DNA of 64,000 nt from NCBI RefSeq assembly GCF_055900595.2, contig NZ_CM148325.1; one strand, written 5' to 3'. The first letter of the stretch is position 1; each line of letters starts with the position of its first letter. Positions 20,394 to 20,784 of the stretch are shown one piece after another. Made by a program: the position numbers.

Positions 20394-20784
20394 TAAATCC
20401 ATCGCTGATGGTGGAGAACTTTAGTACCCGATAAAAGCGGCTTCCTGACAGGAGGCCGTTTTGTTTTGCAGCCCACCTCAACGCACTTATTTAGTGCATC
20501 CATCTGCTATCTCCAGCTGATTAAGTAAATTTTTTGTATCCACATCATCACACAATCGTTACATAAAGATTGTTTTTTCATCAGGTTTTACGCTAAATAA
20601 TCACTGTGTTGAGTGCACAATTTTAGCGCACCAGTTTGGTGCCCCAGAATGGTGCATCTTCAGGGTATTGCCCTATAAATCGTGCATTACGTTTTTGCCG
20701 CATCTCGATAAATCAATGAGTTGCAAAACTGGCACGATTTTTTCATATATGTGAATGTCACGCAGGGGATCGTCCCGTGGATAG

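What the first reader, a model, noticed from the sequence alone, without database searches (positions are those of the whole stretch)
20626..20745. Nitrogen-regulated glnHPQ promoter: sigma-54 element with upstream NtrC-like palindromes
TGGCAC-N5-TTTCA (20730-20745) fits the sigma-54 -24/-12 promoter pattern. About 80-100 bp upstream are overlapping GCACC...GGTGC palindromes typical of NtrC enhancer sites.
Basis: partly seen in the sequence, partly recalled or inferred. Interest (0 to 1): 0.25.

Follow-up and report, generated by a model that had tools for sequence, protein, structure and literature searches.

The report
Known nitrogen-regulated glnHPQ promoter (glnHp2)

Summary
The window is E. 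coli chromosome in the order dps, glnH, glnP, glnQ.

- **Sigma-54 element.** CTGGCACGATTTTTTCA (20729-20745) is identical to the K-12 glnH site that binds sigma-54 in ChIP-seq.
- **Transcription start.** Published glnHp2 numbering puts +1 at 20757, which fits the -24/-12 spacing.
- **NtrC sites.** Two overlapping NtrC 17-mers (20627-20643 and 20640-20656) are centred at -122 and -109. An IHF consensus (20711-20723) lies between them and the promoter.
- **Chance.** The sigma-54 motif alone is not above chance in 64 kb (about 2-3 equally good hits expected). The NtrC pair, the position 43 nt before glnH, and conservation in 79 of 80 Enterobacteriaceae species make the assignment secure.

Novelty: already known. 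Interest: low.

Extras found here:
- The non-consensus T in the -12 element is unique among 135 ChIP-bound E. coli sigma-54 motifs. It is kept in 79 of 80 species; none has the consensus G.
- A conserved NtrC-type dyad, TGCAC-N7-GTGCA (20482-20498), sits at about -267, upstream of the sigma-70 promoter glnHp1. Its distance to the promoter is nearly fixed across species.
- A conserved NtrC-like dyad with one extra spacer base lies near -80.

Neither extra dyad has been tested for NtrC binding here, and I could not check whether they are already published.

The parts
20482..20498 (.). Distal NtrC-type dyad CGCACTTATTTAGTGCA (TGCAC-N7-GTGCA in most genera). Its centre is at -267 from glnHp2 +1 and at about -116 from glnHp1 +1. 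This is a candidate extra enhancer or repression-loop site and is not verified.
   Evidence: The GCAC-N7-GTGC core is exact. GCAC and GTGC are 100% conserved in the 73 species that carry the dyad within 1 bp of -267. It is present near -258 to -279 in all but one or two of 80 species. Its distance to +1 is 267 bp in 57 of 76 species, while its distance to the dps stop codon ranges from 8 to 180 bp.
20534..20555 (+). Degenerate CRP site of glnHp1 (ttgTATCCacatcaTCACAcaa), centred at -61.5 of glnHp1.
   Evidence: The sequence is given in Mao et al. 2007, PMC1865078, and was located in the window. The TCACACAA half is strongly conserved.
20570..20606 (+). Core of the sigma-70 promoter glnHp1. My inference: -35 TTGTTT at 20570-20575, -10 TAAATA at 20594-20599, start near 20606.
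   Evidence: The start is inferred from the CRP site being at -61.5. The blocks AAAGATTGTTTTTT and ACGCTAAAT are conserved. No consensus-like sigma-70 promoter is detected, which fits the reported weak sigma-70 polymerase binding.
20614..20630 (.). Third overlapping NtrC-like 17-mer TGCACAATTTTAGCGCA (centre -135). It is found only in Escherichia. With the next two sites it forms a 43-bp palindrome.
   Evidence: It has 3 mismatches to the consensus. It is part of inverted repeat I1, 20614-20633 / 20637-20656. It is not conserved outside Escherichia.
20627..20643 (.). NtrC (NRI) binding site, centre -122.
   Evidence: CGCACCAGTTTGGTGCC has 2 mismatches to the consensus. The half-sites are conserved and the spacer is free; it is present in 65 species.
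20640..20656 (.). NtrC (NRI) binding site, centre -109. It overlaps the -122 site by 4 bp.
   Evidence: TGCCCCAGAATGGTGCA has 1 mismatch to the consensus. It is present in 73 species and TGGTGCA is nearly invariant.
20668..20686 (.). NtrC-like dyad with an 8-bp rather than 7-bp inner spacer (TTGCCC...TCGTGCA), centre about -80. Possibly a low-affinity site; this is speculative.
   Evidence: GTGCA at -75 to -71 is strongly conserved and TTGC at -89 to -86 is moderately conserved across 80 species.
20711..20723 (+). IHF binding site AATCAATGAGTTG (WATCAANNNNTTR), centre about -40, between the enhancer and the promoter.
   Evidence: It is an exact consensus match. IHF binding at the glnH promoter is reported by in vitro footprint and by ChIP-qPCR with primers spanning 20648-20753. 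The CAA...GTTG core is conserved, although most other genera have AAAACAA instead of AAATCAA.
20729..20745 (+). Sigma-54 (RpoN) -24/-12 promoter element of glnHp2. GG is at 20731-20732. A non-consensus TC replaces the usual GC at 20743-20744.
   Evidence: It is identical to ChIP-seq site OS06 of K-12. The PSSM score is 13.95 bits. It is conserved in 80 of 80 species, as TTTCA in 79. The Salmonella orthologue is bound by sigma-54 and its operon is sigma-54-dependent.
20757..20799 (+). glnHp2 transcription start (G at 20757) and the 43-nt 5' UTR. The UTR has a 5'-terminal hairpin (20757-20782) and a Shine-Dalgarno AGGA at 20790-20793.
   Evidence: +1 follows from the -289..+63 fragment of Mao et al.. 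Bonocora et al. predict 20756. The hairpin is predicted. The UTR is nearly invariant in 80 species.
20800..23063 (+). glnH (20800-21546), glnP (21685-22344) and glnQ (22341-23063): the high-affinity glutamine ABC transporter driven by this promoter.
   Evidence: ORFs are. The annotation of the matching E. coli records is.

Best explanation
The finding is glnHp2, the sigma-54-dependent, NtrC-activated, IHF-assisted promoter of the E. coli glutamine ABC transporter operon glnHPQ.

Mechanism. RNA polymerase carrying sigma-54 binds the -24/-12 element (20729-20745) as a closed complex that cannot open by itself. Under nitrogen limitation, phosphorylated NtrC binds the overlapping dyads centred at -122 and -109 and oligomerises. 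IHF bound at about -40 bends the intervening DNA, so the NtrC oligomer touches the polymerase and uses ATP to open the promoter. Transcription starts at about 20757, 43 nt before the glnH ATG.

Shown here or in cited data: the sequence elements, their geometry, their conservation, and in vivo and in vitro binding of sigma-54, NtrC and IHF to the identical K-12 region.

Inferred from established knowledge: the order of events in activation.

The -12 element is deliberately weak (T instead of the near-invariant G). This plausibly makes activation depend on the IHF-fixed geometry and on NtrC bound in cis.

A sigma-70 promoter, glnHp1, starts about 150 bp upstream. The NtrC sites therefore lie at about +30 and +43 of the p1 transcript and may also hinder p1. 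That last point is inference.
For: - **Locus identity.** The region is dps-glnH-glnP-glnQ, and 5,420 of 5,426 E. coli genomes hold it.
- **Match to K-12.** There are 5 SNPs in 434 bp, none in a specified motif base.
- **Sigma-54 binding.** The 17-mer equals ChIP-seq site OS06 (FAT 6, PSSM 10.8, EcoCyc 'confirmed'), and glnH rises when sigma-54 is overexpressed. The Salmonella orthologue TGGCATGATTTTTTCATT is bound and its operon is sigma-54-dependent.
- **Matrix scan.** The site scores 13.95 bits, higher than 57 of the 135 ChIP-bound sites. The ybhK positive control in the same window was recovered.
- **NtrC dyads.** They have 1 and 2 mismatches and are the only two such hits in 64 kb, against 0.29 expected. 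The same method recovers the published -140 and -108 sites of glnAp2.
- **NtrC binding.** An NtrC ChIP-seq peak converts to window 20686-20766, and RpoN and NtrC gSELEX peaks convert to about 20665.
- **IHF.** The consensus sits at -46 to -34, and IHF binding at the glnH promoter is reported.
- **Start site.** Published fragment coordinates give +1 = 20757.
- **Footprint in 80 species.** Half-sites, the IHF core and the -24/-12 element are conserved islands, while spacers and flanks vary.
- **Literature.** glnHp2 is described as a weak, IHF-dependent, NtrC-dependent promoter.
Against: - The sigma-54 motif alone is no better than chance at the scale of the window.
- The -12 element lacks the G that is present in 134 of 135 ChIP-bound sites.
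- In most non-Escherichia genera the IHF core reads AAACAA rather than the consensus ATCAA.
- I could not read the primary footprinting papers. The -109/-122 labels and the IHF dependence rest on secondary citations, on my recollection, and on the geometry computed here.
- No experiment was done on this particular strain.
Confidence: 0.97

Rival explanations
1. The motifs are chance matches in an AT-rich intergenic spacer, and glnH is driven only by a sigma-70 promoter.
For: The sigma-54 consensus and PSSM hits are at chance frequency in 64 kb. The -12 element is non-consensus. A sigma-70 promoter, glnHp1, does exist upstream.
Against: - The two best NtrC dyads in the window overlap each other exactly where an enhancer should be.
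- All elements are conserved islands in 79-80 of 80 species.
- Sigma-54 and NtrC bind the identical K-12 sequence in vivo and in vitro.
Confidence: 0.01
2. The GCACC...GGTGC dyads act mainly as NtrC operator sites that repress the upstream sigma-70 promoter glnHp1. They sit at about +30 and +43 of its transcript. With the distal dyad at about -116 of p1, they bracket it. On this reading their enhancer role for glnHp2 is secondary.
For: The glnHp1 start is inferred at about 20606, upstream of the dyads. A conserved dyad lies on the other side of p1 at a nearly fixed distance. NtrC sites at glnA overlap glnAp1, and the two control regions are described as similar.
Against: glnHp2 is reported to be NtrC-P-dependent, and the dyads sit at typical enhancer distances from it. 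Repression of glnHp1 by NtrC was not found in the papers I could read. The two roles are not mutually exclusive.
Confidence: 0.02

Closest known systems
glnHp2 of E. coli K-12 (Nohno & Saito 1987; Claverie-Martin & Magasanik 1991)
   Same: This is the same promoter. The sigma-54 17-mer, both NtrC dyad half-sites and the IHF consensus are identical. The flanking genes and the distance to glnH are also the same.
   Different: There are only strain-level SNPs: 20635 T/A at the centre of the -122 site spacer, 20688 T/C, 20709 T/A, and 20717 T/G inside the unspecified N4 of the IHF site.
glnAp2 with glnAp1 (the E. coli glnALG control region)
   Same: Both have a tandem sigma-70 p1 and sigma-54 p2, NtrC dyads about 110-140 bp upstream of p2, and CRP input.
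   Different: glnAp2 has a consensus GC at -12, two well-separated strong sites (-140 and -108) and no IHF requirement. glnHp2 has overlapping sites 13 bp apart, a T in the -12 element and an IHF site. It is not cross-activated without its upstream NtrC sites (UAS) in a synthetic test.
IHF-dependent sigma-54 promoters (Klebsiella nifH/nifU, Pseudomonas Pu, E. coli pspA)
   Same: Each has a weak promoter, an IHF bend between enhancer and promoter, and an activator bound about 100 bp or more upstream.
   Different: They use different activators (NifA, XylR, PspF) and different upstream site motifs.
astCp (the E. coli astCADBE promoter)
   Same: It is a weak NtrC-dependent sigma-54 promoter with NtrC-like dyads far upstream, at -233 and -253 by my scan. 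This shows that NtrC can be placed more than 230 bp from a promoter.
   Different: At astC the bend is supplied by ArgR rather than IHF, and no promoter-proximal pair at about -110 was detected.

Membership tests
Sigma-54 (RpoN) -24/-12 promoter | GG at -24 and GC at -12 with fixed spacing (TGGCAC-N5-TTGCW) | tested here: met
   TGGCAC-N5-TTTCA is at 20730-20745. The spacing is exact and there is one mismatch, a T for the G of the -12 GC. That T is unique among 135 ChIP-bound motifs, yet the identical K-12 site is bound.
Sigma-54 (RpoN) -24/-12 promoter | Matrix score within the range of experimentally bound sites | tested here: met
   The leave-out PSSM score is 13.95 bits, against a range of 6.6-20.0 and a median of 14.35 for bound sites. 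57 of 135 bound sites score lower. The score is not significant at window scale, where 2.7 such hits are expected by chance.
Sigma-54 (RpoN) -24/-12 promoter | Mapped transcription start about 12-13 nt downstream of the -12 element, upstream of and co-oriented with a gene | tested here: met
   Published -289..+63 fragment coordinates place +1 at 20757. That puts the C of the -12 element at -13 and the ATG at +44. The start-to-ATG distance is 41-44 nt in 79 of 80 species.
Sigma-54 (RpoN) -24/-12 promoter | Occupied by sigma-54 in vivo, with expression dependent on rpoN | not testable with these tools
   Literature only. There is a ChIP-seq peak on the identical K-12 sequence, and glnH rises on sigma-54 overexpression. 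Salmonella has ChIP-chip data and a 7.1-fold WT/delta-rpoN ratio.
NtrC (NRI, GlnG) enhancer | 17-bp dyad TGCACCA-N3-TGGTGCA, usually two or more copies | tested here: met
   Two overlapping copies have 2 and 1 mismatches, against 0.29 such hits expected per window. The consensus is as quoted in PMC8743547.
NtrC (NRI, GlnG) enhancer | Located about 100 bp or more upstream of a sigma-54 promoter | tested here: met
   The centres are at -122 and -109. The same scan recovers -140 and -108 for glnAp2.
NtrC (NRI, GlnG) enhancer | Half-sites under selection (conserved) while spacer bases are free | tested here: met
   GCACCA, GGTGC and TGGTGCA are about 80-100% conserved in 80 species. Spacer positions are about 0-50% conserved.
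NtrC (NRI, GlnG) enhancer | NtrC binding and nitrogen-limitation induction | not testable with these tools
   Literature only. An NtrC ChIP-seq peak is assigned to glnHPQ, and gSELEX with NtrC gives a peak at 87% in the glnH/dps spacer. glnHp2 is described as NtrC-P-dependent.
IHF-assisted sigma-54 promoter | IHF consensus WATCAANNNNTTR between enhancer and promoter | tested here: met
   AATCAATGAGTTG is at 20711-20723. The match is weak statistically: there are 8 hits in the window against 3.2 expected. Most other genera have AAACAA in place of ATCAA.
IHF-assisted sigma-54 promoter | IHF binds, and stimulates activation by bending the DNA | not testable with these tools
   Literature only. 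An IHF bend is said to be needed for looping at glnHp2. IHF binding at the glnH promoter is reported by footprint and by ChIP-qPCR.
NtrC site (applied to the distal dyad 20482-20498) | Match to the 17-bp NtrC dyad, and evidence of selection | tested here: inconclusive
   The E. coli copy has 4 mismatches out of 14 but an exact GCAC-N7-GTGC core. Other genera have 2-3 mismatches and perfect TGCAC/GTGCA ends. NtrC-like dyads found by the same scan upstream of other NtrC-regulon promoters (glnK, rutA, astC, yhdW) also have 3-4 mismatches. Conservation and fixed spacing are strong. Binding by NtrC has not been tested, and the available ChIP and SELEX data lack the resolution to tell.

The most novel reading that the evidence does not exclude
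On this reading the glnH control region is a phase-locked scaffold of about 290 bp, not the textbook two NtrC sites plus IHF. It would hold four NtrC-type dyads: -267, -122, -109, and an N8-spaced variant near -80.

The distal dyad lies upstream of the sigma-70 promoter glnHp1, 158 bp (15.0 helical turns) from the -109 site. That distance is 158 bp in 55 of 73 species. Two species have 169 or 170 bp, one helical turn more.

NtrC-P bridging the distal and proximal sites would loop out and silence glnHp1. The same bridging could supply the third dimer of the activating hexamer for glnHp2. One protein assembly would then switch the operon from carbon (CRP) control to nitrogen control.

I could not establish whether the distal site has already been described.
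Probability: 0.3. Interest if true: 0.3.

Novelty: already known. Interest (0 to 1): 0.1.

Why it matters
As reported, the finding only re-identifies a textbook promoter. It matters mainly as a positive control, showing that reading raw sequence can recover a real sigma-54/NtrC enhancer.

Three by-products have modest value.

1. The non-consensus T in the -12 element is unique among 135 bound sigma-54 sites and is kept in 79 of 80 genomes (none has the consensus G). This argues that promoter weakness is selected. Weakness is thought to make glnHp2 strictly dependent on IHF geometry and on NtrC bound in cis.

2. A conserved NtrC-type dyad sits at -267 at a nearly fixed distance. If it is real and unreported, it would extend the model of how the tandem p1/p2 promoters are switched.

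3. The 80-species footprint gives exact bases to mutate for anyone who uses glnHp2 as a synthetic-biology part.

Tried and rejected
**Primary papers not available.** Claverie-Martin & Magasanik 1991, Carmona et al. 1997 and Reitzer & Schneider 2001 are not held. The -109/-122 labels, the IHF requirement on linear DNA and the T-to-G up-mutation at -14 are therefore from my memory. Computed geometry and secondary citations support them.

**Literature string searches were uninformative.** The distal dyad sequence gave no hits. The sequences of the known -109 and -122 sites gave none either. The library therefore cannot judge whether the distal site is new.

**Supplements.** The supplement of Huo et al. 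2009, which lists the glnHp2 IHF site, is not held.

**Sigma-70 scan.** The consensus scan found no glnHp1-like promoter. This fits its reported weakness but gives no independent support for my -35/-10 assignment.

**Rfam.** The scan of 20300-21800 gave only sub-threshold chance hits, and nothing for the conserved 5' UTR.

**5' UTR hairpin.** It is not more stable than shuffled sequence (z = -0.24 and -1.13). Because the sequence is nearly invariant, covariation cannot be tested.

**Independent NtrC matrix.** I considered building one from 12 other NtrC-regulon promoters. Only 7 had dyads with 4 mismatches or fewer, and choosing sites by the consensus would be circular. I used mismatch counts with glnA as a control instead.

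**The -135 17-mer.** I rejected it as a general feature because it is confined to Escherichia.

**The distal dyad as part of the dps terminator or 3' end.** I rejected this. The dyad lies beyond the terminator T-run, and it keeps register with glnHp2 rather than with the dps stop codon.

Full report
**1. What is in the sequence.**
Window 20300-21100 and the ORF list show the end of dps (stop at 20396), a 403-bp spacer, then glnH (20800-21546), glnP and glnQ. The spacer plus the start of glnH matches 5,420 of 5,426 complete E. coli genomes over at least 80% of its length, with glnH annotated under the match. The gene order equals K-12 dps-glnH-glnP-glnQ read on the opposite strand. Against K-12 MG1655 the 434 bp from the dps stop into glnH differ at five positions: 20414, 20635, 20688, 20709 and 20717. 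None touches a specified base of any motif discussed below.

**2. Checking the observation.**
TGGCAC-N5-TTTCA is at 20730-20745 exactly as reported. The consensus TGGCAC-N5-TTGCA with 1 mismatch or fewer hits only there, but 2.17 such hits are expected by chance in the window.

I built a position matrix from the 135 sigma-54 ChIP-seq motifs of Bonocora et al. 2015 (PMC4591121). I left out the three motifs that fall in this window.
- The glnH 17-mer CTGGCACGATTTTTTCA scores 13.95 bits.
- It ranks 5th in the window.
- It beats 57 of the 135 bound sites.
- 2.7 sites this good are expected in a random window.
- The ybhK site, a known bound site, was recovered at 56907-56923 as a positive control.

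So the sigma-54 motif is a good but not statistically remarkable match. Its credibility comes from context.

The NtrC consensus TGCACCA-N3-TGGTGCA (quoted in PMC8743547) with 2 mismatches or fewer hits twice in 64 kb, at 20627-20643 and 20640-20656. That compares with 0.29 expected, and the two hits overlap each other. The same scan applied to K-12 glnA returns dyads at -140 and -108. Those are the published positions, which validates both the method and the numbering.

**3. Identity with the known promoter.**
- **Sigma-54 binding.** The 17-mer is identical to ChIP-seq peak OS06 of K-12. That peak has downstream gene glnH, a predicted start 44 nt from the gene, and EcoCyc status 'experimentally confirmed'. 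glnH is one of five genes with intergenic sites that rise when sigma-54 is overexpressed.
- **Start site.** Mao et al. 2007 (PMC1865078) describe a PCR fragment as '-289 to +63 of glnHp2' and give its primers. The primers map to 20468-20819, which is 352 bp = 289 + 63. So +1 = 20757, a G. That places GG at -26/-25 and the -12 C at -13. This is one base off the idealised geometry and off Bonocora's predicted 20756, which is within normal variation.
- **Dyad positions.** With this +1 the two dyads are centred at -122 and -109. I recall these numbers from Claverie-Martin & Magasanik 1991, which I could not open.
- **NtrC binding.** The NtrC ChIP-seq peak assigned to glnHPQ (NC_000913.2 847261-847341) converts to window 20686-20766. 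The RpoN and NtrC gSELEX peak (847362) converts to about 20665.
- **Salmonella.** The orthologue TGGCATGATTTTTTCATT is bound by sigma-54, and its operon is 7-fold rpoN-dependent.

**4.
- **IHF site.** An exact IHF consensus, AATCAATGAGTTG, lies at 20711-20723 (-46 to -34). IHF-induced bending is stated to be needed for looping at glnHp2. IHF binding at the glnH promoter is reported from footprinting and from ChIP-qPCR with primers that map to 20648-20753.
- **glnHp1.** Upstream is the sigma-70 promoter glnHp1. Its degenerate CRP site (20534-20555) is centred at -61.5, which puts the p1 start near 20606. The NtrC dyads are therefore at about +30 and +43 of the p1 transcript.
- **A third dyad.** In Escherichia only, a third 17-mer with 3 mismatches (20614-20630, -135) overlaps the -122 site. 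The three together form a 43-bp palindrome.

**5. Phylogenetic footprint.**
One scan with GlnH returned 80 loci, one per species, from Enterobacteriaceae (GlnH 93-100% identical). I aligned the 420 bp upstream of the ATG, inspected representative rows, and re-analysed the sequences anchored on the promoter.

The region resolves into conserved islands separated by free sequence:
- the sigma-54 element is present in 80 of 80 species;
- the CAA...GTTG core of the IHF site is conserved, but most genera read AAAACAA rather than AAATCAA;
- the NtrC half-sites are conserved with variable spacers (the -122 dyad in 65 species, the -109 dyad in 73);
- the glnHp1 blocks are conserved;
- the whole 5' UTR is conserved.

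This is the pattern expected of protein-binding sites. It is strong evidence that the motifs are functional and not chance.

**6. The weak -12 element is a conserved feature.**
Of the 135 ChIP-bound E. coli motifs, 134 have G at motif position 15. glnH is the only exception. Across the 80 species, 79 have TTTCA, one has TTCCA and none has TTGCA. The literature calls glnHp2 a weak, IHF-dependent promoter. In a synthetic system it was not cross-activated without its own upstream NtrC sites (UAS), unlike glnAp2, glnKp and nacp. I recall that a T-to-G change at -14 was shown to strengthen the promoter and relieve the IHF requirement (Claverie-Martin & Magasanik 1992, not checked here). With +1 = 20757 the T at 20743 is indeed at -14. 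The inference is that weakness is selected because it ties activation to the IHF-fixed geometry.

**7. Additional NtrC-like dyads (by-product, unverified).**

*(a) The distal dyad.* CGCACTTATTTAGTGCA at 20482-20498 has an exact GCAC-N7-GTGC core. It is one of only three such cores in the window, and another is the -122 site.
- In other genera it reads TGCAC-N7-GTGCA with 2-3 mismatches to the full consensus. GCAC and GTGC are invariant in the 73 species that have it within 1 bp of -267.
- Of the seven other species with a recognised promoter, six carry it at -258 to -279, and only the Erwinia MAG lacks it.
- Its distance to glnHp2 +1 is 267 bp in 57 of 76 species and within 2 bp in 72. Its distance to the dps stop ranges from 8 to 180 bp. 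It is therefore registered to the glnH promoter, not to dps.
- Its distance to the -109 dyad is 158 bp in 55 species, 157-160 bp in 16, and 169 or 170 bp in two. That is 15 helical turns, or 16 in the two outliers.
- Dyads found by the same scan upstream of other NtrC-regulon promoters carry 3-4 mismatches (glnK -87, rutA -142, astC -233 and -253). The E. coli copy's 4 mismatches are therefore not disqualifying.
- By itself a 4-mismatch 17-mer is common, at roughly 0.09 per 270 bp by my calculation. The case rests on conservation and spacing.

*(b) The N8 dyad.* TTGCCC...TCGTGCA at 20668-20686 (centre about -80) resembles the dyad with one extra spacer base. Its GTGCA half is strongly conserved.

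Neither element could be checked against the primary literature. The string search is uninformative, because even the known sites' sequences are absent from the library.

**8. Mechanism, and what is shown versus inferred.**

*Shown.* The motifs, their positions, their conservation and the start site are established here. Occupancy of the identical K-12 sequence by sigma-54, NtrC and IHF comes from cited data.

*Inferred from established knowledge of sigma-54 systems.* The polymerase forms a closed complex, NtrC-P oligomerises on the dyads, an IHF bend delivers it to the polymerase, and ATP hydrolysis opens the promoter.

*Speculative.*
- NtrC on the proximal dyads hinders glnHp1 transcripts.
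- The -267 dyad cooperates with the proximal dyads by looping. This could repress p1 or supply a third dimer.
- The -80 element acts like the low-affinity 'governor' sites of glnAp2.

**9. Verdict.**
Interest is low. The most novel reading that the evidence does not exclude is the extended, phase-locked NtrC scaffold. I give it a probability of about 0.3 of being both real and unreported. It would be only a modest refinement of a classical system.

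Noticed in passing
window 20482-20498: A conserved NtrC-type dyad (TGCAC-N7-GTGCA) lies at about -267 from glnHp2, upstream of glnHp1 and outside the finding's coordinates. 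It is 158 bp from the -109 site in 55 species and 169 or 170 bp in two. It is registered to the glnH promoter, not to the dps stop codon.
   Followed up: yes
window 20668-20686: An NtrC-like dyad with an 8-bp inner spacer lies near -80. The GTGCA half is strongly conserved in 80 species. It could be a low-affinity NtrC site or a site for another protein.
   Followed up: partly
window 20743: The T that replaces the G of the -12 'GC' is unique among 135 ChIP-bound E. coli sigma-54 motifs. It is kept in 79 of 80 Enterobacteriaceae species, and none has G.
   Followed up: yes
window 20757-20799: The glnH 5' UTR is almost invariant across 80 species. It begins with a hairpin, GUCACGCAGGGGAUCGUCCCGUGGAU, whose GGGG-N4-CCCC core is kept even in the most divergent locus (L077). 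The hairpin is not more stable than shuffled sequence, and there is no Rfam match. It might stabilise the 5' end or control translation.
   Followed up: partly
window 20552-20573: A conserved inverted repeat, ACAATCGTTA / TAAAGATTGT, overlaps the inferred -35 region of glnHp1. It looks like a binding site for an unidentified regulator.
   Followed up: no
window 20711-20716 compared with loci L005-L081: Escherichia has the IHF core AAATCAA, while most other genera have AAAACAA. This departs from WATCAA although the rest of the site is conserved.
   Followed up: partly
window 21547-21684: The glnH-glnP spacer holds a GC-rich repeat-like palindrome (CCCTCTCCCCTCTGGGGAGAGGATTAGGGTGAGGGG...). It resembles the dispersed intergenic repeats of E. 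coli and may affect the ratio of glnH to glnPQ expression.
   Followed up: no
window 3264-3280 (+), 6143-6159 (-), 27140-27156 (-): Three 17-mers score as high as or higher than the glnH site in the sigma-54 matrix (14.1-15.1 bits). The one at 27140 maps inside fiu in antisense orientation. None is in the high-stringency ChIP-seq list, and this number of hits is what chance predicts.
   Followed up: no
window 35766-40061 and 57888-62657: Two segments of about 4.3 and 4.8 kb have no counterpart in K-12. They lie between ybiA and rhlE and between ybhK and uvrB. The shared parts are only 92.5-98% identical to K-12 (mostly 95-98%), so the strain is fairly distant from K-12.
   Followed up: no
literature (PMC8743547, supplement): The gSELEX supplement prints the glnHPQ RpoN motif as CTGGCACGATTTTGTCA. 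This differs by one base from the genome sequence CTGGCACGATTTTTTCA and is probably a typographical error.
   Followed up: no
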